Source: Escherichia phage JLBYU50
Direction: 5' to 3' (one strand)
Length of the DNA stretch: 64,000 bases
Sequence record: OK272470.1
Shown here: positions 6,956 through 42,170 of the stretch, piece by piece
Layout of the letters: the number at the start of each line of letters is the position of its first letter
Position numbering within the stretch: position 1 is the first letter of the stretch
Translations under genes and position numbers: made by a program
Notes under the pieces: generated by a model
The model's database searches: none
Told to the model about the DNA's origin: nothing
The model's input: only the letters and a program-made list of their open reading frames with translations

Positions 6956-7149
6956 TTCTTAATAAACTCCAATACAGGTACGTGATCAGCAGTTAAAGTT
7001 ACACAATTGTAACTTACCTTTTCAACTTCAGAGAATGCTTCAACCCATAGCAAGAAATTCTCTTTAGCTTCTTCATAATTCAATGTTGACTTAACAACAT
7101 GGAACTCACCAAGGATGACTCTATAGATTGTTTGCATAGTTTGATTCAT
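6952..7149 (-). CDS. hypothetical protein (65 aa)
   Basis: ORF track. Confidence 0.4.
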   Translation of the reverse strand: MNQTMQTIYRVILGEFHVVKSTLNYEEAKENFLLWVEAFSEVEKVSYNCVTLTADHVPVLEFIKK

Positions 7150-7215
7150 TTATTTTTCCTTTGTTTAAAATGTGTTAAACAATCGCAAATGCTTGTGACG
7201 CACTTTGTGATCCCA

Positions 7216-7584
7216 CTAATTAATGTCAGCACTATGATTGTTGAGAGTATAGGATACTCCATCGCCCAAGTCAACATGAATCTCAACTCCTAACTGTCTT
7301 TCTAATGGTAAACGTTTTGAGAATTGATAATTACAAAGTTTACAGTCTAAGTCAAGCAACTCATGTTTGCTTAAACCTGGGATGATAACTTTGCTTCCCA
7401 CTGTCCACTCAATACCTTCAAAGTTATCTCTTCTTTTCAAAATGTCAAGTAAGAAGATGATTTGTTGCCATTCCGTAGACAAGTCTTCTTCATAGAACGC
7501 AGAACAAAAAGTTTTATCATCGTAGAAAGCATACATTATGCCTCCATCTATTGTTTCACTTCTAACGTAACGTGTGACCCTCAT
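7216..7584 (-). CDS. hypothetical protein (122 aa), first gene of minus-strand operon
   Basis: ORF track; AGGAGG RBS directly upstream on minus strand. Confidence 0.45.
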   Translation of the reverse strand: MRVTRYVRSETIDGGIMYAFYDDKTFCSAFYEEDLSTEWQQIIFLLDILKRRDNFEGIEWTVGSKVIIPGLSKHELLDLDCKLCNYQFSKRLPLERQLGVEIHVDLGDGVSYTLNNHSADIN

Positions 7585-7715
7585 TATTTCCTCCTGTACG
7601 GCTCTGTAACGAGCTAATAGCCTCTAAGATATGCAACCACCTTACCTCACAGTAAAACTCGTTACAATCGTTTTTAGGAGGTTTAGGTTGTACTTAAAAA
7701 TAATCTAAAAAGGTG

Positions 7716-7744
7716 TTGACAAACGCAAAAAAGTATGCTACCCT
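7716..7744 (+). promoter_or_regulatory. sigma70-like promoter (TTGACA-N17-TGcTACCCT)
   Basis: perfect -35 hexamer at 7716-7721, extended -10 at 7736-7744. Confidence 0.4.
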
Positions 7745-7925
7745 AACCCCCGAAAAACGCCGAGCGCAGCGAGGGGGTGTTATCTAATCTTGTGATACAT
7801 GATCTAACAGACAACTTAGTAGTCTACATATAGCACTATGTTATGTCTATAATACTAACATACATGCTCTATACTAACAATAGATTCTTTATTAATTTTA
7901 TTATTAATTAAATAATAAATATCTA

Positions 7926-7954
7926 TTGACTTTAGATCTATCTGTATGTAGAGT
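7926..7954 (+). promoter_or_regulatory. sigma70-like promoter upstream of Prs-like gene
   Basis: TTGACT at 7926-7931, 17-nt spacer, TAGAGT at 7949-7954; followed by AAGGAG RBS. Confidence 0.5.
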
Positions 7955-7993
7955 AGAGAACATAAAGTCCTAACTCAACTAAGGAGATAAACA

Positions 7994-8887
7994 ATGAAAG
8001 TTAGTATTCTGCATGGTGTTGACTGTTATGTTACTGATGTAGACGTTAAAGTCTTTACATTCTCTGGTGGAGAACAGCATGTTCAACTAGATACGAATCT
8101 ATCAGGTTTCAATCATGCTACAGACAGAATCTTACTCACTTTAGAAGTAAGATCTGCTAAAGACTTGATGACTTTGGTTATGACTAAGAATGCATTGGAC
8201 AATATGCTATATCATAAACCATATTGTGTTGATTTGCTCATGTTGTATGTGCCGTATGCACGACAAGACAGAGTGTGTGAGCCTGGGGAAGCATTCGGAG
8301 TTAAAGCCTTTGCTTCTATAATTAATTCATTAAATTTCTCACGTGTTATCGTTGCTGATCCACATAGTGATGTTACGCCAGCAGTGTTTGACAGACTCTG
8401 TGTAATACCTCAAGAAGAGATTGCTTACGAAACTTTAAAGTGGAAGTTACGTATGGAGAATTTTGCTCTTGTTAGTCCTGATGGTGGTGCTCTTAAGAAA
8501 ATATTTAAATTATCTAAGAAAATGTCTTTAGATGTGTTCTGTGCAGAGAAGGTTAGAGATACTGCAACAGGTGCTATTGTTCGTACAGACATTTCTGTAC
8601 AGGATTTCAATAAGCGTAACCTGATGATCGTAGATGATATCTGTGATGGTGGTAGAACTTTTATCGAATTGGCTAAAGTGCTACGTGCTCGTAACGCAGG
8701 TAAGATTGAGTTATATGTTACACACGGTATCTTTTCTAAAGGTCTTAAAGAGTTAAGTGAGCACTTTGACTGCATTCATTCTCTTAATGTGTGGGAAGAT
8801 AACATCCAAGAAGATTCCGGTGTTCTTGTTAAGAATCAGCCAGATTTGCAACAACAAATTGTATCTCCATACGTGTGGAATTTTTAA
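7994..8887 (+). CDS. ribose-phosphate pyrophosphokinase (Prs)-like protein; candidate PRPP or ADP-ribose pyrophosphokinase
   Basis: YVPYARQDR, VIVADPHS, VSPDGGAL and PRTase-type nucleotide loop LMIVDDICDGGRTF; strong RBS. Confidence 0.8.
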   Translation: MKVSILHGVDCYVTDVDVKVFTFSGGEQHVQLDTNLSGFNHATDRILLTLEVRSAKDLMTLVMTKNALDNMLYHKPYCVDLLMLYVPYARQDRVCEPGEAFGVKAFASIINSLNFSRVIVADPHSDVTPAVFDRLCVIPQEEIAYETLKWKLRMENFALVSPDGGALKKIFKLSKKMSLDVFCAEKVRDTATGAIVRTDISVQDFNKRNLMIVDDICDGGRTFIELAKVLRARNAGKIELYVTHGIFSKGLKELSEHFDCIHSLNVWEDNIQEDSGVLVKNQPDLQQQIVSPYVWNF

Positions 8888-8897
8888 ATAATAAGTG

Positions 8898-8926
8898 TTG
8901 ACAATAGGGAGTATGCTTAGTAAGAT
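8898..8926 (+). promoter_or_regulatory. sigma70-like promoter upstream of Nampt-family gene
   Basis: TTGACA 8898-8903, 17-nt spacer, TAAGAT 8921-8926. Confidence 0.5.
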
Positions 8927-8958
8927 ACTCCCACACTAACAAACAAGGAGACATAACT

Positions 8959-10692
8959 ATGAATATTTTTGCACCTTTTGCTACTGATTGGTATAAACCT
9001 GGTCACAAGCAGATGTACAACCAAAATACAAAACTCATTTTCTCTAATTTAACTCCTCGTAATGATAAAAACTTTGCACACTATGCAGATCGTGAAGCAC
9101 GTGGTGTGATTGTTTTAGGTATTCGTCGAGCAGTTACTGATGCTCTTGTAACTATGTGGGATGGCTTCTTTAAAATGTCTCGTAGTGCAGCAGTAAATAA
9201 ATTTTATCGTATGTCTAAGAATGCATTAGGTGCTTCTGCTCCTTCTGCTGAATGTTGGGGAGAATTGCACGATTTAGGTTATCTTCCGCTAGAAGTTCGA
9301 TCTCTGCCAGAAGGTGTTTTGTGTCCTATTGGTGTTCCTGTGTTTACTGTGCATAACACTTTAGAAAAATTCTTTTGGTTAACTAACTATGTGGAAACAC
9401 TCTTGTCAGATGAAACTTGGAAGACAATGACTAATGCCACAGCAGCTTTTCAGTATAAGCGTATCGCTATGGCGTATGCGATGGCAACGTGTGATAACAT
9501 TGATCACGTTAATTTCCAGTGTCATGATTTTAGTCTACGTGGCTTAAGCAATATCGAAGATGGTTATAAGAGTGGTATCGCTCATTTGGCATCTTTCACA
9601 GGAACAGATAATATTCTGGCTATTGAAACTGTGCATGATTACTATGGTATTGATTATGATCAATTTGTTGCAGGTTCTATTCCGGCAACAGAACATTCAG
9701 TAGCAACGACTAATATTGGAGCTATTGTTGAAGATCTGAAGAAACATTTCCCACATCTTAAAGATGATGTTGATGGGCTTCGTTATGTAGCAGAGAAAGA
9801 GTTTCTTCGCCGCTATATTGAAGAAATTGTTCCAGAAGGTTTTTGTTCATATGTAGCAGATTCTTATGATTACTGGGCTGTCTTGACTCGCATTCTGGTA
9901 GAATTGAAAGAGTCCATTATGTCACGAAATGGTCGTCTTGTTATTCGTCCAGATTCAGGAGATCCGGTTAAAGTTGTTGCAGGATACAATGTTGAATCTT
10001 TTGATAACTATGAAGACCTTTTAAATAATGGTATTGCGACAGCTACTGAAGTAGTTCATTTGGCTGATGTTAATAAGTATTACAATGTTCTTCAGGATTG
10101 TAGCGTTGCTGATTGTATTGATGAAACTTATGAGATTCCTTATTGTGAAGCAGTAGGTTCTATTCAAATCCTTTGGGAAGTGTTTGGCGGTACTATCAAT
10201 CGAAAAGGCTACAAGGTTCTTGATCAGCACATCGGTATGATTTATGGTGATTCTATTACTGTTGAACGAGAACACGAAATCTTACTCCGACTGAAGAAGA
10301 AAGGCTTTGCTGCTTCCAATATTGTATTTGGTGTTGGTAGTTATACTTATCAGTTCAATACACGAGATACTTTTGGTTTTGCTGTTAAAGCAACAGGTAG
10401 TATCATCGGTGAACACGAAATTTTGGTAAGTAAGGAGCCTAAAACTGATCCTGGTAAACGCTCTGCAAAAGGTTTTATTAAGGTTGTTAAGGATACAAAT
10501 GGTAAACTTTCTCTTGTGGATAATCTTTCTTTTAAAGATATTCAAGATGAAGACAATGAGTTAAAAGTTATCTTCAGGGATGGTACGGTTATTACACCAC
10601 AAGTAGAAGGACGTGATGAAACATTTACTGATATCCGCAACCGTGTTGATGTAGAGGTTCTTCGTACTATGGGAACCATCCAGGTTGACTAA
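8959..10692 (+). CDS. nicotinamide phosphoribosyltransferase (Nampt)-family protein
   Basis: block-by-block match to Nampt: ATDWYKPGHKQ, LPEGV..FTVHNT..FWLTNYVETLL, HDFSLRGLS, FTGTDN, PATEHSV, ADSYDYW, VIRPDSGDP, IVFGVGS..NTRD, DPGKRSAKG. Confidence 0.85.
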   Translation: MNIFAPFATDWYKPGHKQMYNQNTKLIFSNLTPRNDKNFAHYADREARGVIVLGIRRAVTDALVTMWDGFFKMSRSAAVNKFYRMSKNALGASAPSAECWGELHDLGYLPLEVRSLPEGVLCPIGVPVFTVHNTLEKFFWLTNYVETLLSDETWKTMTNATAAFQYKRIAMAYAMATCDNIDHVNFQCHDFSLRGLSNIEDGYKSGIAHLASFTGTDNILAIETVHDYYGIDYDQFVAGSIPATEHSVATTNIGAIVEDLKKHFPHLKDDVDGLRYVAEKEFLRRYIEEIVPEGFCSYVADSYDYWAVLTRILVELKESIMSRNGRLVIRPDSGDPVKVVAGYNVESFDNYEDLLNNGIATATEVVHLADVNKYYNVLQDCSVADCIDETYEIPYCEAVGSIQILWEVFGGTINRKGYKVLDQHIGMIYGDSITVEREHEILLRLKKKGFAASNIVFGVGSYTYQFNTRDTFGFAVKATGSIIGEHEILVSKEPKTDPGKRSAKGFIKVVKDTNGKLSLVDNLSFKDIQDEDNELKVIFRDGTVITPQVEGRDETFTDIRNRVDVEVLRTMGTIQVD

Positions 10693-10763
10693 ATAAAAAC
10701 TTCGTGATAAGATTAAGGTAAGGAGAGCCTGCAACTGCCCTGGATGGGCTTCACGAAGGATTT

Positions 10764-10985
10764 ATGAAACAACATAATTTTTATTTTCGTTGCCGAGCCT
10801 GTAACAGACACTTGACTAATCACTCCCGTAGAGACAGGAATGGTAATATTCAAGAGTCGGATCTATGCTCGATTTGTACAAGTTTGGCATTCGACGACAG
10901 TCCCGAAAGGGTTTATCAACATCAAAGTGTAACTGATCTTCTTCTAAATTACACAGCACCAGAGGAGGAATTAGATTTCACATAA
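10764..10985 (+). CDS. small Cys-rich (zinc-ribbon-like) protein
   Basis: ORF track; CRACNRH...CSIC four-Cys arrangement; GAAGGA RBS. Confidence 0.45.
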   Translation: MKQHNFYFRCRACNRHLTNHSRRDRNGNIQESDLCSICTSLAFDDSPERVYQHQSVTDLLLNYTAPEEELDFT

Positions 10986-10998
10986 TTAAGGAAACAGT

Positions 10999-11109
10999 AT
11001 GTCTACAGAAATTATTTTTGGCTTATCTGTTTTTATTGCTATTGTATCTTTTGTATGCGGTTATACACTAGGTTACAGATCAAGAAAAAATATTGTAAAA
11101 ACTAGTTGA
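10999..11109 (+). CDS. possible 36-aa single-pass membrane peptide
   Basis: below ORF-track cut-off; AAGGAAACAGT-ATG; hydrophobic core IIFGLSVFIAIVSFVCGYTLGY then basic tail. Confidence 0.25.
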   Translation: MSTEIIFGLSVFIAIVSFVCGYTLGYRSRKNIVKTS

Positions 11110-11135
11110 CAACATAGCTAGTTATTTGCTAAGAT
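11106..11135 (+). promoter_or_regulatory. sigma70-like promoter
   Basis: TTGACA 11106-11111, 18-nt spacer, TAAGAT 11130-11135; upstream of 11165 CDS. Confidence 0.45.
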
Positions 11136-11164
11136 AAGCACAAGTTAAACAAAAGGAGAAAACT

Positions 11165-11431
11165 ATGACAGAAAATACTTATGGTAAAGAATTGATTGAG
11201 AAGCACGTATTGATTGATAATAAAGGTGGAGCAATCTTTCTTTTTGATCCTGAATCAGTTCTTACTGAAAACGAAAATGGTAGCGTTAGCCTTAAAACAG
11301 AAAGTTTGGTAATTGACTTCCTTGCTCTTCTGGATGAAATGGGGCTTCCTCACGAAGAAGAAGCAGCTATTGCTTTGATTACAGTTCTTCTGGAGAAACG
11401 CGAAGCTGGTGAAATGACCCAGTATGCTTAA
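11165..11431 (+). CDS. hypothetical protein (88 aa)
   Basis: ORF track; AAAAGGAG RBS. Confidence 0.5.
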   Translation: MTENTYGKELIEKHVLIDNKGGAIFLFDPESVLTENENGSVSLKTESLVIDFLALLDEMGLPHEEEAAIALITVLLEKREAGEMTQYA

Positions 11432-11438
11432 TATTCAA

Positions 11439-11514
11439 GGTTCCATAGCTCACTGACGAGAGCGCACACCTCATAAGTGTCGAGGGCAGGGATTGTAACC
11501 CTGGGGAACCACCA
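11439..11514 (+). tRNA. tRNA with CAT anticodon (Met/Ile-type), non-canonical D- and T-loops
   Basis: complete cloverleaf: acceptor GGTTCCA/GGGAACC, D-stem GCTC/GAGC, anticodon loop CTCATAA, T-stem CAGGG/CCCTG, encoded ACCA; T-loop is ATTGTAA rather than TTCRANY. Confidence 0.45.
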
Positions 11515-11545
11515 TTTAAAAGGAGGTGCTATGCATCTCCTATAT

Positions 11546-11631
11546 GCAAGTGTGGTGGAATTGGTGATACACATTGTGCTTAAAACGCAACGCTTAAATG
11601 CTTGAGGGTTCGAATCCCTCCACTTGCACCA
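11546..11631 (+). tRNA. tRNA-Leu (anticodon TAA)
   Basis: acceptor GCAAGTG/CACTTGC, anticodon loop CTTAAAA, long variable arm, T-loop GGTTCGAATCC, ACCA encoded. Confidence 0.8.
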
Positions 11632-11647
11632 ACACCTAAAAAAATAT

Positions 11648-11677
11648 CTTGACATTTACTTAGTTTTTTGTTATAGT
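11648..11677 (+). promoter_or_regulatory. sigma70-like promoter inside tRNA array
   Basis: TTGACA 11648-11653, 18-nt spacer, TATAGT 11672-11677. Confidence 0.45.
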
Positions 11678-11687
11678 TACTATGAAA

Positions 11688-11769
11688 ACGGGGTGTATCT
11701 CACCTGACTTCTAATCAGGCGTTAACCGAGTAATTGGAGTATGCAGGTTCGAATCCTGTCACCCCGGCC
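11688..11769 (+). tRNA. atypical tRNA-like gene, anticodon hairpin reads TCT (Arg-type)
   Basis: perfect acceptor CGGGGTG/CACCCCG, canonical T-arm GCAGG-TTCGAAT-CCTGT, GCCA 3' end, perfect hairpin CCTGA-CTTCTAA-TCAGG; no conventional D-arm fits between acceptor and this hairpin. Confidence 0.4.
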
Positions 11770-11787
11770 AAAAAGTTTTAAAAACTA

Positions 11788-11817
11788 CTTGACAAGCAAG
11801 ATAGTTTTATGTTAGAT
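11788..11817 (+). promoter_or_regulatory. sigma70-like promoter inside tRNA array
   Basis: TTGACA 11788-11793, 18-nt spacer, TAGATT 11812-11817. Confidence 0.4.
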
Positions 11818-11833
11818 TTAAAGTATAATAACT

Positions 11834-11923
11834 GGAAGGTAGGGCGCAGCGGTGCGCAACCAGGTTTGAACCCTGGCCCATTGTAGCGATACGGTGATGG
11901 TTCGACTCCATTATCTTCCTCCA
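11834..11923 (+). tRNA. tRNA-Ser (anticodon TGA)
   Basis: acceptor GGAAGGT/ATCTTCC, anticodon stem CCAGG/CCTGG with loop TTTGAAC, long variable arm, T-loop TTCGACT, TCCA 3' end. Confidence 0.7.
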
Positions 11924-11929
11924 AATTCA

Positions 11930-12094
11930 ATGAGTGATTTTATGAATTATAAAACTATTGGACAGGTTGTTACCGGAGTTAAGATTGTAAATAATAAAGT
12001 TGTTTATGAGTATTCTAATCTTCAACAATCTGAAGATGGTAAGAATATTCGTATGGTAAAAGAAGAACAAAAAGATTCCGGTTGTTTTGAATAA
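11930..12094 (+). CDS. possible small protein (54 aa) between tRNA genes
   Basis: ORF-track ORF 11894..12094 starts inside the tRNA-Ser; first ATG after the tRNA is at 11930; no clear RBS. Confidence 0.25.
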   Translation: MSDFMNYKTIGQVVTGVKIVNNKVVYEYSNLQQSEDGKNIRMVKEEQKDSGCFE

Positions 12095-12102
12095 TTAAAA
12101 AC

Positions 12103-12188
12103 GGTAGATTGGTGAAATGGTAGCCACAACAGTTTGCTAAACTGTCGTCGGAAACGGCGTGTAGGTTCAAGTCCTACATCTACCGCCA
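12103..12188 (+). tRNA. tRNA-Ser (anticodon GCT)
   Basis: acceptor GGTAGAT/ATCTACC, anticodon stem ACAGT/ACTGT loop TTGCTAA, long variable arm, T-arm TAGG-TTCAAGT-CCTA, GCCA. Confidence 0.8.
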
Positions 12189-12315
12189 AGTTATCTTTAA
12201 TGTAGCTTGTCATCTTACTTTAATAGAGTAAACTTTCGGCAGATGGCCCCCCACCATCTTACCGATATCCCATAGTCAAGTGCCGCAAACACTGGCTATT
12301 TTAAAGATAATTTAT

Positions 12316-12391
12316 ACATCGTTAGCTTAGTTGGTAGAGCAAGGGGCTTTTAACTCCAAGGTCGAAGGTTCGAATCCTTCACGATGTACCA
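12316..12391 (+). tRNA. tRNA-Lys (anticodon TTT)
   Basis: acceptor ACATCGT/ACGATGT, D-arm TAGCTTAGTTGGTAGAGC, anticodon loop CTTTTAA, T-loop GGTTCGAATCC, ACCA. Confidence 0.75.
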
Positions 12392-12396
12392 AACAC

Positions 12397-12483
12397 GTAG
12401 GTATCGCATAGCGGCAATTGCTGGAGACTGTAAATCTCTTGCCCTTCGGGGCTTCGTTGGTTCGAGTCCAACTACCTGCACCA
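12397..12483 (+). tRNA. tRNA-Tyr (anticodon GTA)
   Basis: acceptor GTAGGTA/TACCTGC, anticodon loop CTGTAAA, long variable arm, T-arm GTTGG-TTCGAGT-CCAAC, ACCA. Confidence 0.75.
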
Positions 12484-12490
12484 AATTAAA

Positions 12491-12575
12491 GATGGATTGG
12501 CCTAGTGGTTGGGCGACGGACTGTTAATCCGTGAACGAAAGTTCTAGCAAGGTTCAAATCCTTGATCCATCGCCA
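12491..12575 (+). tRNA. tRNA with GTT anticodon (Asn-type) carrying a long variable arm
   Basis: acceptor GATGGAT/ATCCATC, anticodon stem ACGGA/TCCGT loop CTGTTAA, 15-nt variable hairpin GAAC-GAAA-GTTC, T-loop GGTTCAAATCC, GCCA. Confidence 0.55.
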
Positions 12576-12580
12576 AATAG

Positions 12581-12646
12581 TGCTTGTAGAGTTAATAGAA
12601 ACCTCTAGAATTTTCTAGAATTGTAGGTATCAAATCCTACCAAGCA
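12581..12646 (+). other. degenerate tRNA-like remnant
   Basis: acceptor-like TGCTTG/CAAGCA and T-arm-like GTAGG-TATCAAAT-CCTAC, but no foldable anticodon arm and no CCA. Confidence 0.25.
12604..12620. repeat. tandem direct repeat TCTAGAA-TTT-TCTAGAA
   Basis: two copies of TCTAGAA (each containing palindromic TCTAGA) separated by TTT, read directly at 12604-12620. Confidence 0.7.
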
Positions 12647-12654
12647 AATATTTT

Positions 12655-12729
12655 GCTCCTATCGTATAACGGCTATTACGGTTGCCTTGTAAGCAACTTA
12701 TCAGGGTTCGAGTCCTTGTGGGAGCACCA
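12655..12729 (+). tRNA. tRNA-Thr (anticodon TGT)
   Basis: acceptor GCTCCTA/TGGGAGC, anticodon stem GTTGC/GCAAC loop CTTGTAA, T-loop GGGTTCGAGTCC, ACCA. Confidence 0.8.
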
Positions 12730-12751
12730 ATTTAACTCTAAAGGAGTGTAT

Positions 12752-13075
12752 GTGACAGAAAAAGAGTTAGAGGAATATTTTAATATCAATGTTTTCGATG
12801 GTTTTGATGATATTGAAGATGTTGAAAGATATTATGAAGTAGAGTTAGATAAGGATAACATTGTAATTCTTTCTGCAACTTATGATTGTGCATATTATGA
12901 AGGCGAATCTCACGTTTATTTTTATGATATGAAAACATCTTTGTTTTATGAAGTACACGCATATCATTGTTCTTGTTATGGCTTAGAAGGTCAGTGGGAA
13001 CCTGAAGAAATAGGTGATTTGGACTTTACTATTGCATATCTAAACAGACGTGGTGCATCTACTATTTTAAAATAA
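12752..13075 (+). CDS. hypothetical protein (107 aa)
   Basis: ORF-track ORF 12653..13075 starts inside tRNA-Thr; start re-set to in-frame GTG at 12752, 5 nt after AAGGAG. Confidence 0.4.
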   Translation: MTEKELEEYFNINVFDGFDDIEDVERYYEVELDKDNIVILSATYDCAYYEGESHVYFYDMKTSLFYEVHAYHCSCYGLEGQWEPEEIGDLDFTIAYLNRRGASTILK

Positions 13076-13089
13076 ATATCAAAAGCCTC

Positions 13090-13119
13090 TTGACAAAGGG
13101 GCTAATAATATGTTAGAGT
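13090..13119 (+). promoter_or_regulatory. sigma70-like promoter inside tRNA array
   Basis: TTGACA 13090-13095, 18-nt spacer, TAGAGT 13114-13119. Confidence 0.4.
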
Positions 13120-13130
13120 AATATTGTTAA

Positions 13131-13205
13131 GCGGGTATAGTGTTAATGGTAGCATATGAGGTTTCCACCCTCCAGGTGCAGGTTCAAGTCCTGTTACTCG
13201 CTCCA
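13131..13205 (+). tRNA. tRNA-Gly (anticodon TCC)
   Basis: acceptor GCGGGTA/TACTCGC, anticodon loop TTTCCAC, T-arm GCAGG-TTCAAGT-CCTGT, TCCA. Confidence 0.75.
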
Positions 13206-13304
13206 AGATTATTTAAATGGAATCGCTAGAGAAAATTTCTCTTTTCGCTCATGGTTTTCTCCTTCAAACTCTAGCGGTTCTTTTTAAGTGATTTTTAGTT
13301 TTAT

Positions 13305-13379
13305 TGGAGATTAGCCTAGTGGGAAGGCAACGGCCTTTGAAGTCGTGATGACTAGGTTCGATTCCTAGATCTCCAGCCA
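13305..13379 (+). tRNA. tRNA-Gln (anticodon TTG)
   Basis: acceptor TGGAGAT/ATCTCCA, D-arm GCCTAGTGGGAAGGC, anticodon loop CTTTGAA, T-arm CTAGG-TTCGATT-CCTAG, GCCA. Confidence 0.8.
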
Positions 13380-13386
13380 ATATTTA

Positions 13387-13462
13387 CAGTGCGTAGCGCA
13401 GTTGGTAGCGTGGGAGCCTTGGACGCTTCAGGTCGCAGGTTCGAGTCCTGCCGCACTGACCA
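13387..13462 (+). tRNA. tRNA-Pro (anticodon TGG)
   Basis: acceptor CAGTGCG/CGCACTG, D-arm GCGCAGTTGGTAGCGT, anticodon loop CTTGGAC, T-arm GCAGG-TTCGAGT-CCTGC, ACCA. Confidence 0.8.
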
Positions 13463-13467
13463 AATTT

Positions 13468-13542
13468 GCAGAGATAGCTGAGACGGATTAGTGCTACCCT
13501 GAAAAGGTAGAAAGGATGGATCGTTACCATCTCTCTGCACCA
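13468..13542 (+). tRNA. tRNA-Phe (anticodon GAA)
   Basis: acceptor GCAGAGA/TCTCTGC, anticodon stem CTACC/GGTAG loop CTGAAAA, T-stem GATGG/CCATC (loop ATCGTTA), ACCA. Confidence 0.7.
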
Positions 13543-13617
13543 AATATCACCATCCAAGGAGTAGACTTGGTTAACTGTCAATAGCACATTGAGGCTTCTT
13601 ACAGTGGTGTATTTTAT

Positions 13618-13702
13618 GGCTAAGTGGTGGAATGGTATACACGATACGCTTAGAACGTATTGCCCCAAGGGATTGTGAGTTCGAGTCTCACCTTAGCTAC
13701 CA
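13618..13702 (+). tRNA. tRNA-Leu (anticodon TAG)
   Basis: acceptor GGCTAAG/CTTAGCT, anticodon stem ATACG/CGTAT loop CTTAGAA, long variable arm, T-arm GTGAG-TTCGAGT-CTCAC, ACCA. Confidence 0.8.
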
Positions 13703-13780
13703 TATCTAAGAGATATCATAGGGTTTGCAACGGATATCTACCGTCCTGTTAAGGATACCACGCCAAGACGGGTTATAAAG

Positions 13781-13856
13781 GGTTAGCCATTGATAGTGTG
13801 AAGCTGGCGTTTCGAGTGCTTTCATAAGGCATTGCGAGAAGAGTTCGATCCTCTTA
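13781..13856 (+). tRNA. tRNA with CAT anticodon (Met or Ile-lysidine type)
   Basis: perfect acceptor TGATAGT/ACTATCA, anticodon loop TTCATAA, T-arm AAGAG-TTCGATC-CTCTT, ACCA. Confidence 0.65.
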
Positions 13857-13871
13857 CTATCAACCAAATTA

Positions 13872-13950
13872 TTACAGATTGTGCGGGATAGAGGAGTCTG
13901 GTCGTCCTCGCCAGTTTCATATGCTGGAGATCATCGGTTCGAATCCGATT
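13872..13950 (+). tRNA. tRNA with CAT anticodon (Met or Ile-lysidine type), 1:72 mismatch
   Basis: acceptor TGCGGGA/TCCCGCC with unpaired first position, anticodon loop TTCATAT, T-arm ATCGG-TTCGAAT-CCGAT, TCCA. Confidence 0.6.
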
Positions 13951-13994
13951 CCCGCCTCCAATAAATACCTCCCTTCTGGTGTAATGATTAAGTT

Positions 13995-14091
13995 ACATTG
14001 ACACTTCAAGGAACTCATAGCCGGGTAGATTTAAAAGAGTATGGTACTCAATATGGCTCCAAACCATAGATCAGGGGGTTCGATTCCTCAC
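13995..14091 (+). tRNA. tRNA-like element with Trp-type anticodon arm (CCA); 5' half non-canonical
   Basis: perfect anticodon arm TATGG-CTCCAAA-CCATA, T-loop GGTTCGATTCC, GCCA 3' end; no 7-bp acceptor partner at the expected distance, only a 5-bp CAAGG/CCTTG pairing about 40 nt upstream. Confidence 0.35.
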
Positions 14092-14106
14092 CTTGCTGCC
14101 AATTAT

Positions 14107-14182
14107 TGTGGTATCGTACAGATGGTTAGTACACTCGACCGATAATCGAGAAACAACGGTTCGACTCCGTTTACCACGACCA
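14107..14182 (+). tRNA. tRNA-Ile (anticodon GAT)
   Basis: acceptor TGTGGTA/TACCACG, D-arm GTAC-AGATGGTTA-GTAC, anticodon stem CTCGA/TCGAG loop CCGATAA, T-arm AACGG-TTCGACT-CCGTT, ACCA. Confidence 0.75.
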
Positions 14183-37234: not shown

Positions 37235-39394
37235 ATGAAACAGGCTATTTTTACTGTAACTCGAAATACGAGAGTAAATGCCAGTTCATTCAGCTATAAG
37301 ACCGTCGATGGAACGGCGGTCGCTGGTAGAGATTATGTAGCTAAACAGGGAACAGTAACGTTCCCTTCTGATGCAGATTCTGCTACTGTAGTGGTTGATG
37401 TATATGAACGTCCGGCAAACTCTTTAGATCTTTATTTTACTCTTGAGATTACTAGCATAAGTCAAAATAACATGATGATCAACGAAGAAATTCGTTGTGT
37501 TATTACGACTGATCAATCGAATACAACCCCACTAACTTGGCCTGTTGTGAAGTCTAGAATGTTTGATCCTAAGTTTTGGACAATAGATTCTCAAGCAACA
37601 GAGAGCTGTTCTATTATCTCTAATGGTGATTCTTTCACAGCAAGAATGGTTAATAGGACAGTGGCTGGTCTTGCTGGGATTATTTGGTCAACTTACGATA
37701 AATATGATCACAAAGGATTAGGCTACCAAGAACATTCTGACTTAAGTAAAGAGAAACTTTGGTTTAAAATGGAACTTAGTCAAGGTGTTCCTGGATTAAA
37801 AGAAGAAAAATTATTGCCATCCTTAACAGTGACACTGAAGGATGAAACAGTTCATTATGTATCTCTAAACTTTTATGCAGAAGAAGTTTCAGAGGACGGT
37901 AAAACAGCAACAATAAAATTAGATTTCTCAAATTTAAAATCTGGGCCAGAAAATGATATTGTTGTTGACACTACACAGATAGATAATATGTTCTTCTCCT
38001 TGATCTCCACAAGGTATCAAGAAATTGAAGATGTTATACCTGTAGACAATATGGATCTTTCCTTTAAGTTTACCATACTAGAGCCTGATACTGGTTACAG
38101 TATGATGAATATGGGTAATTTAAATGTTCCGGCGCACACCATAAGAATGTGTACATCTTATGATGATATGTATAACCTAACCCCAGAGCGAGTTATTTCT
38201 AACACCTATAGATTAGGTTATAGAGATATGATTAACCATTATAATGGTATGTCACACTATTATCAATTTAGTTGGGATGCTGGATCTAATAAATGGGCTT
38301 TGAACAGAACAGAATATTTAAACCCAGCAACAGAAGCCTGGTTTGACAATTTCCACGCTAATGCAAAAGCTATGGGCTACACAGTAATGAACTCCTTAAG
38401 TTTTGAACTTATGAGTACAGTGTGTCCTGTAGAATGGGTACAACATGCTTGGAATGATGATCTTGCTGCTACAGGTTATGAGCCACCAAGTTATGTTTTA
38501 TCTCCTTCAATTGATGAAGGGATGAATTATTTACAAGGTGTAATAAATAAGATAGCTTCTATATCCGCTGCCAATGATCTTCCTGTTATTATTCAGGTTG
38601 GTGAACCGTGGTGGTGGTATAACACAGCTACCAATCTACCGTGTATTTATGATTATACAACCAAAGTTGCATTTAATAATGAAACTGGATTATATGCACA
38701 AGATGTTGGTACAGTTAAGAATTATAAAACTGGTACACCATATGATGAATATTATGCATTCCTATCTAAAACATTAGGACTACGTGTTGCTAAGTTTGCA
38801 ACGGATACTAGATTAGCATATCCTGGAGCGAAAGTTACATTGTTACCATTTGTGCCATCCATTTTGGGTAATGGTATGATGGAGTTTGTTAACTTCCCTA
38901 AAGATTATTATATCCCAGAAAACTTTGACTTTTATTGTTCAGAATGTTATGACTGGTTGTTGGAAGGCAAGATGGAAAGATCTTTCGACGCTATCACAAT
39001 ACCTAATGAGCAACTAGGTTTTAGTTACGATAAGATACATTATCTTGCAGGGTTTGTTCCAGATGCAACTCTAGCACCATTATATGGCTTTGATCCTGAA
39101 TCAAACTATAGAACATATTTGTGGAAAATGATTATAGGCAATATTGTATTGAATGACCAGAAGTTTGTTGGTTTATATCAATACATATGGGCTTACCCAC
39201 AAATAATGCATGATTCAATAACTGTTCTTAATTCAAAATCCCAAGTGTTTTATATGGGTAATGTGCCTTTGAATTGCTACTTGCAAGATATCACTCTTAA
39301 ACAGGTAAATGTTGAGATTGCCACTATAAGTGGAATTACATTAGCCACTAAATCTGGAGAAGATTTAGTAACAACACAAAAATTTTATATATAG
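37235..39394 (+). CDS. tail/baseplate protein (719 aa)
   Basis: ORF track; AAGGAA RBS. Confidence 0.45.
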   Translation: MKQAIFTVTRNTRVNASSFSYKTVDGTAVAGRDYVAKQGTVTFPSDADSATVVVDVYERPANSLDLYFTLEITSISQNNMMINEEIRCVITTDQSNTTPLTWPVVKSRMFDPKFWTIDSQATESCSIISNGDSFTARMVNRTVAGLAGIIWSTYDKYDHKGLGYQEHSDLSKEKLWFKMELSQGVPGLKEEKLLPSLTVTLKDETVHYVSLNFYAEEVSEDGKTATIKLDFSNLKSGPENDIVVDTTQIDNMFFSLISTRYQEIEDVIPVDNMDLSFKFTILEPDTGYSMMNMGNLNVPAHTIRMCTSYDDMYNLTPERVISNTYRLGYRDMINHYNGMSHYYQFSWDAGSNKWALNRTEYLNPATEAWFDNFHANAKAMGYTVMNSLSFELMSTVCPVEWVQHAWNDDLAATGYEPPSYVLSPSIDEGMNYLQGVINKIASISAANDLPVIIQVGEPWWWYNTATNLPCIYDYTTKVAFNNETGLYAQDVGTVKNYKTGTPYDEYYAFLSKTLGLRVAKFATDTRLAYPGAKVTLLPFVPSILGNGMMEFVNFPKDYYIPENFDFYCSECYDWLLEGKMERSFDAITIPNEQLGFSYDKIHYLAGFVPDATLAPLYGFDPESNYRTYLWKMIIGNIVLNDQKFVGLYQYIWAYPQIMHDSITVLNSKSQVFYMGNVPLNCYLQDITLKQVNVEIATISGITLATKSGEDLVTTQKFYI

Positions 39395-39402
39395 GAGTAA
39401 AA

Positions 39403-41976: not shown

Positions 41977-42016
41977 TTATCTGGTGGGACTATGCTAATG
42001 GCGTAGATTTCATAGC

Positions 42017-42045
42017 AAAAAAAAACCCCGCTTCGGCGGGGTAAT
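42017..42045. terminator. GC stem-loop CCCCGC-TTCG-GCGGGG flanked by A-run upstream
   Basis: perfect 6-bp stem; A8 run on the 5' side means the U-tract is on the minus strand although flanking genes are on +. Confidence 0.4.
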
Positions 42046-42071
42046 CATTGAGAATAACAATAGGAGTACAT

Positions 42072-42170
42072 ATGGAATCTCAACTCAGTCAACCTAAGCA
42101 GGTTATCAACGTCAAAGTGAACAAGCAGAGTATCGCTCATGATTTAAAAAGTAATGAGAACGCACTATGA
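42072..42170 (+). CDS. small protein (32 aa)
   Basis: below ORF-track cut-off; AGGAG RBS 6 nt upstream; stop TGA overlaps ATG of next gene (ATGA). Confidence 0.3.
   Translation: MESQLSQPKQVINVKVNKQSIAHDLKSNENAL

What the first reader, a model, noticed from the sequence alone, without database searches (positions are those of the whole stretch)
7926..10692. Prs-like + Nampt-family gene pair: candidate phage NAD+ reconstitution (anti-defence) module
Seen: two adjacent co-oriented genes, each with its own TTGACA-N17-TAnnnT promoter and strong RBS. 7994..8887 carries ribose-phosphate pyrophosphokinase signatures (YVPYARQDR, VSPDGGAL, nucleotide loop LMIVDDICDGGRTF). 8959..10692 matches Nampt block by block (HDFSLRGLS, FTGTDN, PATEHSV, VIRPDSGDP, DPGKRSAKG) but is about 80 aa longer than canonical Nampt. 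Established: phages carry Nampt/Prs-type genes, and phage NAD+ reconstitution pathways (a Prs-like ADP-ribose pyrophosphokinase plus a Nampt-like transferase, or Nampt plus NMNAT) counter NAD+-depleting immunity such as TIR/Thoeris, SIR2 and DSR-type effectors. Inference: this pair restores NAD+ during infection. No NMN adenylyltransferase or Nudix partner is visible in the window, which mildly favours the two-enzyme ADP-ribose route, but substrate choice cannot be read from sequence.
Basis: partly seen in the sequence, partly recalled or inferred. Interest (0 to 1): 0.85.

Follow-up and report, generated by a model that had tools for sequence, protein, structure and literature searches.

The report
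Known phage NAD+ rebuilding gene pair

Summary
Two co-oriented ORFs, 7994..8887 (297 aa, Prs family) and 8959..10692 (577 aa, Nampt family), each have an AAGGAG ribosome-binding site and a promoter-like motif upstream.

The window comes from a phi92-like E. coli myovirus (Justusliebigvirus). The pair is phi92 gp107/gp108, 97-99% identical in 55 phage records.

It is the known anti-defence pathway NARP1 (Adps + Namat; Osterman et al.). That paper's supplementary tables already list the phi92 Prs-like protein as Namat-linked and the phi92 Nampt-like protein as "Adps-associated".

Tests run here agree:
- The window proteins are 36% and 40% identical to the genetically validated Bas63 gp79/gp80.
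- A profile of 12 Namat-linked phage Adps proteins scores the first protein at 271 bits, against 134 for E. coli Prs. The catalytic lysine is present (K186).
- The second protein keeps every mapped catalytic-core residue and carries the Namat-specific adenine-clamp motif GSYTYQFNTRD. KVP40-type and Xanthomonas Nampt lack it.
- Its best solved-structure match is the SPbetaL1 Namat crystal structure.
- No NMN adenylyltransferase turned up in the window or in the closest complete genome.

The extra ~85 aa come mainly from two lineage-specific insertions, partly shared with Bas63 Namat.

Activity in this lineage has not been assayed. Novelty: already known. Interest is low.

The parts
7926..7954 (+). 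Promoter-like site TTGACT-N17-TAGAGT upstream of the adps gene, in the 410-bp divergent intergenic region
   Evidence: It is one of 8 matches to TTGACW-N17/18-TARRRT against 0.68 expected. Function is inferred, not shown.
7981..7986 (+). AAGGAG ribosome-binding site of adps
   Evidence: Read directly from the sequence. phi92 annotates the same RBS.
7994..8887 (+). adps: Prs-family ADP-ribose pyrophosphokinase homologue (297 aa), equal to phi92 gp107
   Evidence: It is 36% identical to Bas63 gp79. An Adps profile scores it at 271 bits against 134 for E. coli Prs. The phi92 orthologue is listed as Namat-linked in Osterman Supplementary Table 1.
8549..8578 (+). Adps catalytic flexible loop K186-I195 (KVRDTATGAI). 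K186 aligns with SPbetaL1 Adps K162, the residue whose K162A change abolishes activity.
   Evidence: The motif K-x-R-[DN]-x-x-T-[GLN]-x-[IV] is present in all 13 Namat-linked sequences examined and absent from E. coli Prs (KRRPRANVSQV).
8898..8926 (+). Promoter-like site TTGACA-N17-TAAGAT between adps and namat
   Evidence: 10 of 12 consensus matches. No terminator-like hairpin was found between or after the two genes.
8945..8950 (+). AAGGAG ribosome-binding site of namat
   Evidence: Read directly from the sequence. phi92 annotates the same RBS.
8959..10692 (+). namat: Nampt-family nicotinamide ADP-ribose transferase homologue (577 aa), equal to phi92 gp108
   Evidence: It is 40% identical to Bas63 gp80 and 39% to SPbetaL1 Namat. 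The best PDB match is 9w5x/9w5w, the Namat crystal structures (395 bits; target-normalised TM-score 0.93). The phi92 orthologue is labelled 'Adps-associated' in Osterman Supplementary Table 2.
9721..9789 (+). Namat insertion 1 (aa 255-277), absent from SPbetaL1 Namat and KVP40-type NadV. It lengthens a helical hairpin in the model.
   Evidence: helices 246-263 and 271-290; block pLDDT 88-92.
9985..10155 (+). Namat insertion 2 (aa 343-399), predicted to form a small alpha/beta subdomain. Bas63 Namat has a longer version. Length is kept in 40 homologues but sequence is poorly conserved.
   Evidence: block pLDDT 86-95. Function is unknown.
10336..10368 (+). Namat selectivity-clamp helix motif G460-D470 (GSYTYQFNTRD). 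Y462 and F466 occupy the two adenine-stacking positions.
   Evidence: SPbetaL1 has GSFTYQYNTRD and Bas63 has GSYTYQYMTRD. KVP40-type NadV has GGGLLQQLDRD, Xanthomonas Nampt GGALLQKVDRD and H. ducreyi NadV GAQTYQRNTRD.

Best explanation
The pair is a NARP1 operon (NAD+ reconstitution pathway 1) of a phi92-like E. coli phage. A host defence such as SIR2-HerA, DSR1/2, type I Thoeris or SEFIR cleaves NAD+ into ADP-ribose and nicotinamide. The first enzyme, Adps, a diverged ribose-phosphate pyrophosphokinase, uses ATP to pyrophosphorylate ADP-ribose to ADPR-pyrophosphate. The second enzyme, Namat, a diverged Nampt, joins ADPR-PP to nicotinamide to give NAD+ directly. No NMN intermediate and no NMN adenylyltransferase is needed.

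Shown here: the gene pair, family and subfamily placement, conservation of the catalytic and specificity residues, the fold, and the absence of a detectable NMNAT.

Inferred by homology to Bas63 (genetics, metabolite detection) and SPbetaL1 (biochemistry, crystal structures): the actual substrates and the anti-defence phenotype in this lineage.
For: (1) Identity of the locus. The region is 97-99% identical in nucleotides to 55 phi92-like records and equals phi92 gp107/gp108.

(2) Prior cataloguing. The NARP1 paper lists phi92 FR775895_00103 as a Prs/Adps homologue with 'Namat within 10 genes: Yes'. It lists FR775895_00104 and PaulScherrer MZ501100_00240 as 'Adps-associated'.

(3) Homology to validated proteins. 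The window proteins are 36% (E 3e-43) and 40% (E 5e-136) identical to Bas63 gp79 and gp80. [quoted passage not shown]

(4) Adps subfamily. A profile built from 12 Namat-linked phage sequences, window excluded, scores the window protein at 271 bits and E. coli Prs at 134. The window protein fails every NCBIfam Prs equivalog cut-off, for example 97 bits against a cut-off of 296, and only just passes the broad TIGR01251 subfamily model (118 against 113). K186 aligns with catalytic K162 of SPbetaL1 Adps.

(5) Namat subfamily. All mapped nicotinamide- and NMN-contacting residues of SPbetaL1 Namat are conserved: D10, Y12, F191, S192, R194, D217, A243, R330, D332, G430, D431, and the histidine H246 of the ATEHS motif. 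The clamp motif GSYTYQFNTRD is present.

(6) Structure. The best sequence and fold matches in the PDB are the Namat structures 9w5x and 9w5w (395 bits; target-normalised TM-score 0.93; model pLDDT 90).

(7) No NMNAT. tblastn with E. coli NadR and NadD gives nothing better than E = 0.4 against the window and the complete genome of the nearest relative. That genome annotates no NMNAT or Nudix gene, and its one 'nucleotidyltransferase' has only a weak PolyA_pol head match.
Against: No biochemistry or genetics has been done on a phi92-like Adps/Namat pair. The founding experiments used Bas63 (36-40% identical) and SPbetaL1 (35-39% identical).

The variable clamp loop (SCL) fits only partly. Its third residue is K37, as in Bas63 (K42). 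The next residue, which is said to do the stacking when the third is Lys, is N38 here (W43 in Bas63), with F39 one position further on.

Overall similarity alone does not separate Namat from a true NadV. H. ducreyi NadV scores 338 bits against 395 for Namat.

SPbetaL1 Namat can still make NMN from PRPP in vitro, so some classical Nampt activity is not excluded.

The NMNAT search used only two E. coli queries plus annotation, and most genes of this phage are unannotated.
Confidence: 0.9

Rival explanations
1. Classical salvage, which is the reading implied by the database annotation. The first enzyme is a true PRPP synthetase and the second a true Nampt that makes NMN. Host NadR or PncC/NadD then finish NAD+ synthesis, boosting NAD+ supply in general rather than rebuilding it from ADP-ribose.
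For: Nearly all of the 55 records annotate the genes as ribose-phosphate pyrophosphokinase and nicotinamide phosphoribosyltransferase. The proteins pass TIGR01251 and NF006629. SPbetaL1 Namat retains PRPP-to-NMN activity in vitro.
Against: [quoted passage not shown] ADPR-PP is detected only when both the operon and the defence system are present. SPbetaL1 Namat yields only NAD+ when given PRPP and ADPR-PP together. The window protein carries the adenine-clamp motif that true Nampts lack. The Prs-like protein scores twice as high on an Adps profile as E. coli Prs does, and it fails all Prs equivalog cut-offs.
Confidence: 0.06
2. NARP2-type pathway: the Nampt-like enzyme makes NMN from PRPP, and a phage NMN adenylyltransferase encoded elsewhere completes NAD+ synthesis.
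For: Only that the protein belongs to the Nampt family, and that many phage genes remain unannotated, so a very divergent NMNAT could be hidden.
Against: No NMNAT was found by annotation or by tblastn in the window or in the complete genome of the 99%-identical relative. NARP2 Nampts form a separate clade, and no phage was found carrying both pathways. The phi92 orthologue is labelled Adps-associated rather than Nmnat-associated. The window protein is only about 34% identical to KVP40-type NadV over part of its length (137 bits) and differs at the clamp motif.
Confidence: 0.02
3. PRPP supply for nucleotide synthesis: the Prs-like enzyme mainly feeds phage nucleotide metabolism, and its pairing with the Nampt-like gene is incidental.
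For: The genome is rich in nucleotide-metabolism genes, including ribonucleotide reductases, thymidylate synthase and thymidine kinase.
Against: In the published survey, 97% of Adps-clade genes have a Namat gene in the immediate vicinity. The two-gene pair is the only unit shared between the window, Bas63 and SPbetaL1 loci; no neighbouring ORF is shared. The catalytic-loop motif matches the Namat-linked clade, not Prs.
Confidence: 0.02

Closest known systems
NARP1 of Escherichia phage Bas63 (JohannRWettstein, Felixounavirus) genes 79-80; Osterman et al., bioRxiv 10.1101/2024.02.11.579819
   Same: Same two-gene order and orientation: a Prs-like gene followed by a Nampt-like gene. The proteins are 36% and 40% identical. 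The SCH clamp motif has the same form (GSYTYQ[FY]xTRD). The clamp loop has Lys at the same position. Bas63 Namat also has an insertion at each of the two sites, giving proteins of 577 and 593 aa.
   Different: The phage family is different (Stephanstirmvirinae, about 146 kb, against Felixounavirus, 87 kb). No neighbouring genes are shared. The residue after the clamp-loop Lys is Asn here and Trp in Bas63. Insertion 2 is shorter here. The Adps has a C-terminal tail of about 25 aa. No experiments have been done on this lineage.
NARP1 of Bacillus phage SPbetaL1 (genes 190-191); Namat crystal structures 9w5x and 9w5w (PMC12774641)
   Same: All mapped catalytic and NMN-contact residues are conserved, as is the adenine-clamp motif. 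The Adps catalytic lysine is conserved. These are the best sequence and fold matches in the PDB.
   Different: SPbetaL1 Namat is 491 aa and lacks both insertions. Its clamp loop uses Arg40 where the window has Lys37. A362 is Ser432 here. The Adps proteins are 35% identical over 176 aa, and the nucleotide loop reads DDLSSFGGTF against DDICDGGRTF here.
NARP2 / NadV-NatV of Vibrio phage KVP40-type phages
   Same: The protein belongs to the Nampt family, and the pathway has the same overall purpose of restoring NAD+ during infection.
   Different: NARP2 requires a phage NMNAT, and none was found here. The Nampt-type motif GGGLLQQLDRD lacks the aromatic clamp residues. Similarity to the window protein is only 137 bits over part of its length.
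NARP1-AP (Adps, Macro-domain phosphatase Adpp, Namat) of Vibrio phage Gary; bioRxiv 10.64898/2026.01.28.702374
   Same: The Adps and Namat core is the same. The nearest complete relative of the window phage encodes a Macro-domain protein 41% identical to Gary Adpp.
   Different: No Macro-domain gene lies in or next to this operon. The homologue is about 82 kb away, outside the window, and carries an extra N-terminal region of about 90 aa. phi92-like phages are not in that paper's table of operon-linked Adpp.
Housekeeping ribose-phosphate pyrophosphokinase (E. coli Prs) and bacterial or animal Nampt/NadV
   Same: The folds and catalytic chemistry are shared: the PRTase nucleotide loop, the YARQDR motif and the Nampt core residues.
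   Different: The first protein is 28% identical to E. coli Prs, fails the Prs equivalog cut-offs and has a different flexible-loop motif. The second scores 166 bits against mammalian Nampt compared with 395 against Namat, and differs at the clamp motif.

Membership tests
NARP1 (Adps + Namat) | Adjacent, co-oriented Prs-family and Nampt-family genes in a phage genome | tested here: met
   The ORFs at 7994..8887 and 8959..10692 are both on the + strand and 71 bp apart. Families are assigned. The phage origin is shown.
NARP1 (Adps + Namat) | The Prs-like protein belongs to the phage Adps clade rather than to housekeeping Prs | tested here: met
   An Adps profile of 12 Namat-linked sequences scores the window protein at 271 bits and E. 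coli Prs at 134. The protein is 36% identical to Bas63 Adps and 28% to E. coli Prs. It fails all Prs equivalog cut-offs. The phi92 orthologue is listed as Namat-linked in the published table.
NARP1 (Adps + Namat) | Adps catalytic lysine (SPbetaL1 K162, B. subtilis Prs K197) | tested here: met
   K186 aligns with K162. The K162A phenotype is described.
NARP1 (Adps + Namat) | Namat catalytic core: nicotinamide- and NMN-contacting residues, including R306 of SPbetaL1 | tested here: met
   D10, Y12, F191, S192, R194, D217, A243, R330, D332, G430 and D431 are conserved. H246 of the ATEHS motif is conserved.
NARP1 (Adps + Namat) | Selectivity-clamp helix motif GS-X-phi-X-phi-X-phi-TRD with aromatic residues at motif positions 3 and 7 | tested here: met
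   G460-D470 reads GSYTYQFNTRD, with Y462 and F466 at those positions. The motif is defined. It is absent from KVP40-type NadV, Xanthomonas Nampt and H. ducreyi NadV.
NARP1 (Adps + Namat) | Selectivity-clamp loop supplying an adenine-stacking residue: third residue Arg, Lys or Tyr, and if Lys or Tyr the fourth residue stacks | tested here: inconclusive
   The third residue is K37, which fits. The fourth is N38, not aromatic, followed by F39. Bas63 has K42-W43. The loop is variable by definition, and no ligand-bound model was made.
NARP1 (Adps + Namat) | Adps converts ADP-ribose plus ATP to ADPR-PP, and Namat converts ADPR-PP plus nicotinamide to NAD+ | not testable with these tools
   This needs purified proteins and LC-MS. 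It has been shown only for SPbetaL1, DyoEdafos and Paenibacillus homologues.
NARP1 (Adps + Namat) | Counteracts NAD+-depleting defence systems during infection | not testable with these tools
   This has been shown for Bas63, FADO and SPbetaL1 NARP1. No experiment on a phi92-like phage turned up in the literature search.
NARP1 (Adps + Namat) | No phage NMNAT (NARP1 and NARP2 do not co-occur) | tested here: met
   No NadR or NadD homologue scores better than E = 0.4 in the window or the whole Nernie genome. None is annotated. The one 'nucleotidyltransferase' is not NMNAT-like. Sensitivity is limited to these two queries.
NARP2 (Nampt + Nmnat) | A phage-encoded NMN adenylyltransferase, and a Nampt of the Nmnat-associated clade | tested here: not met
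   See for the missing NMNAT. The phi92 orthologue is labelled Adps-associated. The clamp motif differs from KVP40-type NadV.
NARP1-AP (NARP1 with associated phosphatase) | A Macro-domain ADPR-1''-phosphate phosphatase (Adpp) encoded within the NARP1 operon | tested here: not met
   The three flanking ORFs scanned (10764..10985, 11165..11431 and 7216..7584, minus strand) have no Macro domain, and no other ORF lies between the two genes. An unlinked homologue exists in the nearest relative, outside the window.
Housekeeping class I ribose-phosphate pyrophosphokinase (Prs) | Scores above the curated equivalog cut-offs, and carries the flexible loop KRRPR and the ribose-5-phosphate loop DTGGT | tested here: not met
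   The best equivalog score is 97 bits against a cut-off of 296. The loops read KVRDTATGAI and DDICDGGRTF, against KRRPRANVSQV and DDMIDTGGT in E. coli Prs.

The most novel reading that the evidence does not exclude
phi92-like phages may run a dispersed three-enzyme version of NARP1-AP. It would combine the Adps-Namat pair in this window with an unlinked Macro-domain protein about 82 kb away in the nearest complete relative. That protein is 41% identical to the characterised ADPR-1''-phosphate phosphatase Adpp of Vibrio phage Gary and has an extra N-terminal region of about 90 aa. It would let the phage rebuild NAD+ after aRES-type cleavage as well. If so, the operon-based estimate that 15% of NARP1 phages carry Adpp is too low.

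A second, smaller possibility concerns the two confidently folded insertions in this Namat lineage (aa 255-277 and 343-399), which might add a regulatory or assembly function that SPbetaL1 Namat lacks.
Probability: 0.25. Interest if true: 0.4.

Novelty: already known. Interest (0 to 1): 0.15.

Why it matters
NARP1 is a broad-spectrum counter-defence. By rebuilding NAD+ from the cleavage products, it neutralises many unrelated NAD+-depleting systems: SIR2-HerA, DSR1/2, type I Thoeris, SEFIR, Kongming and SPARSA.

Knowing that a phi92-like phage carries it helps predict host range and helps in choosing therapeutic phages. Most database records still label the two genes as ordinary PRPP synthetase and Nampt, so correcting the annotation has practical value.

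It does not open a new question. The pathway, its structural basis and the presence of these genes in phi92-like phages have all been published.

Tried and rejected
- **NMNAT or Nudix partner.** I read the full annotation of the closest complete genome, Nernie. I scanned its 'nucleotidyltransferase', hydrolase, phosphatases and MazG-like gene against Pfam. I ran tblastn with E. coli NadR and NadD against the window and the whole genome. No NMNAT was found, so NARP2 was rejected.
- **Accessory genes inside the operon (Macro/Adpp, RyR-domain RyDEP).** Three flanking ORFs scanned against Pfam have neither domain; the only hit is a weak zinc-ribbon match in the 73-aa ORF at 10764..10985. The short ORFs further upstream were not scanned.
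- **Shared neighbours.** tblastn of six flanking ORFs against the Bas63 and SPbetaL1 NARP1 loci gave nothing. The conserved unit is only the two genes.
- **RNA elements.** An Rfam scan of 7000-11500 at E <= 0.1 found nothing. The 'hypothetical tRNA' that the phi92 record places inside gene 108 is not supported by ARAGORN.
- **Terminators.** No terminator-like hairpin lies between or after the genes, so the transcript ends remain unknown.
- **Recent acquisition.** GC content of the two genes (0.37 and 0.38) equals that of the window (0.38), so there is no compositional sign of recent transfer.
- **Bas63 identity.** I first assumed Bas63 was a phi92-like phage. It is a Felixounavirus and is absent from the nucleotide hits, so the link to the founding experiments is at 36-40% protein identity, not near-identity.
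- **Adps structure.** No solved Adps structure exists in the PDB copy and no paper on one was found. I therefore made no structural test of ADP-ribose binding and did not use the second structure-prediction job.


Full report
**Observation**

All quoted peptide motifs are present in the translations. Each gene has an AAGGAG ribosome-binding site 7-8 nt before its ATG (7981-7986 and 8945-8950).

Promoter-like sites lie at 7926-7954 (TTGACT-N17-TAGAGT, so the -35 hexamer is TTGACT rather than TTGACA) and at 8898-8926 (TTGACA-N17-TAAGAT). A generic sigma-70 scan of the region is not above chance. The narrower motif TTGACW-N17/18-TARRRT occurs 8 times in the window against 0.68 expected, and four of these precede consecutive genes at 7926, 8898, 10685 and 11106. 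I derived that pattern after seeing those four sites, so only the other four count as independent support. No terminator-like hairpin follows either gene, and no Rfam family matches the locus.

**Where the window comes from**

The 2.8-kb region is 97-99% identical to 55 records of phi92-like E. coli myoviruses (genus Justusliebigvirus, about 146 kb). The best match is phage Nernie at 99.1%. The genes are phi92 gp107 and gp108. They sit at a divergent junction. Upstream genes run on the minus strand. Downstream are three small ORFs, a cluster of 16 tRNA genes (11439-14182), and then lysis, terminase and structural genes.

**Family placement**

| Protein | Match | Score |
|---|---|---|
| First (297 aa) | PHROG 619 | E 5e-91 |
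| First | TIGR01251 (broad Prs model) | 118 bits, cut-off 113 |
| First | Best Prs equivalog model | 97 bits, cut-off 296 |
| Second (577 aa) | PHROG 448 | E 2e-186 |
| Second | PF04095 | E 2e-36 |
| Second | NF006629 | 458 bits |

The first protein fails every Prs 'equivalog' cut-off. It is therefore a diverged Prs-family member, not an orthodox PRPP synthetase.

**What is known about such pairs**

Osterman et al. (bioRxiv 10.1101/2024.02.11.579819) started from just such an operon, genes 79-80 of phage Bas63. Their main results were:
- Deleting the operon sensitises Bas63 to SIR2-HerA.
- Wild-type Bas63 still overcomes that defence in a host lacking pncC and nadR.
- ADPR-pyrophosphate appears only when both the phage operon and the defence system are present.
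- The SPbetaL1 homologues convert ADP-ribose, ATP and nicotinamide to NAD+ in vitro.

They named the enzymes Adps and Namat and the pathway NARP1. They found it in 859 phage genomes (4.3%). They separated it from NARP2, which is Nampt plus NMNAT as in KVP40.

Bas63 is a Felixounavirus, not a phi92-like phage, so the window is not near-identical to the founding example. However, the paper's Supplementary Table 1 lists phi92 FR775895_00103, which differs from the window protein at three positions, with 'Namat within 10 genes: Yes'. Supplementary Table 2 labels phi92 FR775895_00104 and PaulScherrer MZ501100_00240 as 'Adps-associated'. This exact gene pair has therefore already been counted as NARP1.

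**Independent tests run here**

The window proteins are 36% (E 3e-43) and 40% (E 5e-136) identical to Bas63 gp79 and gp80. They are 35% and 39% identical to SPbetaL1 Adps and Namat. By comparison they are 28% identical to E. coli Prs and about 34%, over part of the length, to a KVP40-type NadV.

*Adps.* A profile built from 12 Namat-linked phage Prs-like proteins, with the window excluded, scores the window protein at 271 bits and E. coli Prs at 134. K186 aligns with SPbetaL1 K162, the residue whose K162A change abolishes activity. All 13 Namat-linked sequences share a loop motif after this lysine, K-x-R-[DN]-x-x-T-[GLN]-x-[IV] (KVRDTATGAI in the window). E. coli Prs has KRRPRANVSQV instead. 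This contrast is my own observation from a small sample, not a published determinant.

*Namat.* A 2026 structural paper (PMC12774641) defines a conserved catalytic core and a 'selectivity clamp' that binds the adenine of ADPR-PP. The clamp consists of a helix motif, GS-X-phi-X-phi-X-phi-TRD with aromatic residues at motif positions 3 and 7, and a variable loop. In the window protein every mapped core residue is conserved: D10, Y12, F191, S192, R194, D217, A243, H246, R330, D332, G430 and D431. The comparison of the helix motif is as follows:

| Protein | Helix motif |
|---|---|
| Window | GSYTYQFNTRD (Y462, F466) |
| SPbetaL1 Namat | GSFTYQYNTRD |
| Bas63 Namat | GSYTYQYMTRD |
| KVP40-type NadV | GGGLLQQLDRD |
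| Xanthomonas Nampt | GGALLQKVDRD |
| H. ducreyi NadV | GAQTYQRNTRD |

The variable loop fits only partly. The third residue is K37, as in Bas63, but the next is N38 (W43 in Bas63), with F39 after it.

The best PDB matches by sequence are the Namat crystal structures 9w5x and 9w5w at 395 bits. H. ducreyi NadV scores 338 bits and mammalian Nampt about 166. An AlphaFold2 model (pLDDT 90.1, pTM 0.90) matches 9w5x best by fold, with a target-normalised TM-score of 0.93. Because a true NadV scores nearly as high overall, the clamp motif and the gene linkage carry the discrimination, not global similarity.

**Extra length**

The roughly 85 additional residues relative to SPbetaL1 Namat come mainly from two insertions. 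The first, aa 255-277, lengthens a helical hairpin. The second, aa 343-399, is predicted to form a small alpha/beta subdomain. Both are confidently modelled. Bas63 Namat has an insertion at both sites. Forty homologues at 48-75% identity are of similar length (555-596 aa), although the inserted sequence itself is poorly conserved. Their function is unknown. Since Bas63 NARP1 works in vivo, insertions at these sites are compatible with activity.

**NMNAT and accessory genes**

The complete genome of the closest relative annotates no NMNAT, NadR or Nudix gene. Its one 'nucleotidyltransferase' shows only a weak PolyA_pol head match. tblastn with E. coli NadR and NadD finds nothing better than E = 0.4 in the window or that genome. 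This fits NARP1 and argues against NARP2, within the sensitivity of those two queries.

Two accessory enzymes have been described inside some NARP1 operons: the Macro-domain phosphatase Adpp (NARP1-AP, which counters aRES) and the RyR-domain glycosidase RyDEP. Neither domain was found in the three flanking ORFs scanned. No flanking ORF is shared with the Bas63 or SPbetaL1 loci.

**Mechanism**

- *Shown here:* the gene pair, its family and subfamily placement, the conserved catalytic and specificity residues, the fold, and the lack of a detectable NMNAT.
- *Inferred by homology:* after a host NADase cleaves NAD+ to ADP-ribose and nicotinamide, Adps uses ATP to form ADPR-PP. Namat then couples ADPR-PP to nicotinamide and regenerates NAD+ without an NMN step, which lets the phage complete replication.

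I put this at about 0.9. The main rival is classical PRPP-to-NMN salvage completed by host enzymes, at about 0.06. It is disfavoured by the clamp motif, the Adps-profile score and the published delta-nadR delta-pncC result for the homologous operon. Residual PRPP-dependent activity is not excluded, because SPbetaL1 Namat retains it in vitro.

**Novelty and score**

The system is nonetheless already known, and this lineage's copy is already listed in the founding paper's tables. A tblastn search finds homologues of the Nampt-like protein in 2043 of 50,697 phage records; that count includes NARP2-type Nampts. A literature search found no experiment on a phi92-like NARP1.

What remains open is small: the absence of direct assays in this lineage, the role of the Namat insertions, and a possible link to an unlinked Adpp-like gene. 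That gene lies outside the window. In Nernie (117098..117832) it encodes a Macro-domain protein 41% identical (E 4e-36) to Vibrio phage Gary Adpp, with copies at 95% identity or more in about 54 records. The Macro family is also widespread in phages that lack NARP1, T4 among them, so the link is speculative. Interest is 0.15.

Noticed in passing
Outside the window: PP925835.1 (Nernie) 117098..117832 = L007:17098-17832: A 244-aa Macro-domain protein whose C-terminal 150 aa are 41% identical (E 4e-36) to the ADPR-1''-phosphate phosphatase Adpp of Vibrio phage Gary (NARP1-AP). It is encoded about 82 kb from the NARP1 pair and carries an extra N-terminal region of about 90 aa. Copies at 95% identity or more occur in about 54 records. 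The Macro family itself is widespread (2909 phage records, T4 included).
   Followed up: partly
Outside the window: PP925835.1 69797..70609 = L006:19797-20609: The nearest relative encodes its own Sir2-family protein (PF02146, E 1e-22), an NAD+-consuming enzyme family, in a phage that also carries an NAD+ rebuilding pathway. Its role is unknown.
   Followed up: no
window 11439-14182: A cluster of 16 tRNA genes, three of them tRNA-Met(CAT), begins about 750 bp downstream of the Namat stop codon on the same strand.
   Followed up: no
window 7926, 8898, 10685, 11106, 13090, 18071, 30260 (+) and 1570 (-): A recurring promoter-like motif, TTGACW-N17/18-TARRRT (often TAAGAT), occurs 8 times against 0.68 expected, mostly directly upstream of small genes. 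It may be a phage promoter class recognised by host sigma-70.
   Followed up: partly
window 39290-42166: About 2.9 kb has no megablast match in the otherwise 97-99% identical Nernie genome. Flanking matches map next to Nernie baseplate genes, so this is probably a swapped host-recognition module.
   Followed up: no
window ~9551-9701 (phi92 NC_023693 49736..49886): The phi92 record annotates a 151-nt 'hypothetical tRNA' inside the Namat gene. ARAGORN finds no tRNA there and Rfam finds no RNA family, so it is probably an annotation artefact.
   Followed up: yes
window 10764-10985, 11165-11431: Two small ORFs between Namat and the tRNA cluster each have their own promoter-like site. One is 73 aa with two CxxC pairs and a weak zinc-ribbon match. 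The other is an 88-aa acidic protein with no Pfam match. Neither has a counterpart next to the Bas63 or SPbetaL1 NARP1 loci.
   Followed up: partly
Records MG065639, MG065645, MG065656, MG065689: Four records named 'Campylobacter phage' with host C. jejuni are 98.6-98.7% identical to this E. coli phi92-like locus and have genomes of the same size. They are probably mislabelled or contaminant phages.
   Followed up: no
PHROG 12872; Shigella phage Ag3 FJ373894_00125 (Osterman Supplementary Table 1): Some phages carry a single ORF that joins the N-terminal two-thirds of Adps to the C-terminal part of Namat. Both window proteins hit the 547-aa fusion-type PHROG. This could be a real fusion, a deletion derivative or a sequencing artefact.
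   Followed up: no
PDB 9ke8/9keo (H. ducreyi NadV) compared with window 10336-10368: H. ducreyi NadV is almost as similar to the window protein as the Namat crystal structure is (338 against 395 bits), but it lacks the two aromatic clamp residues (GAQTYQRNTRD). Whole-sequence similarity alone therefore cannot tell Namat from NadV.
   Followed up: yes
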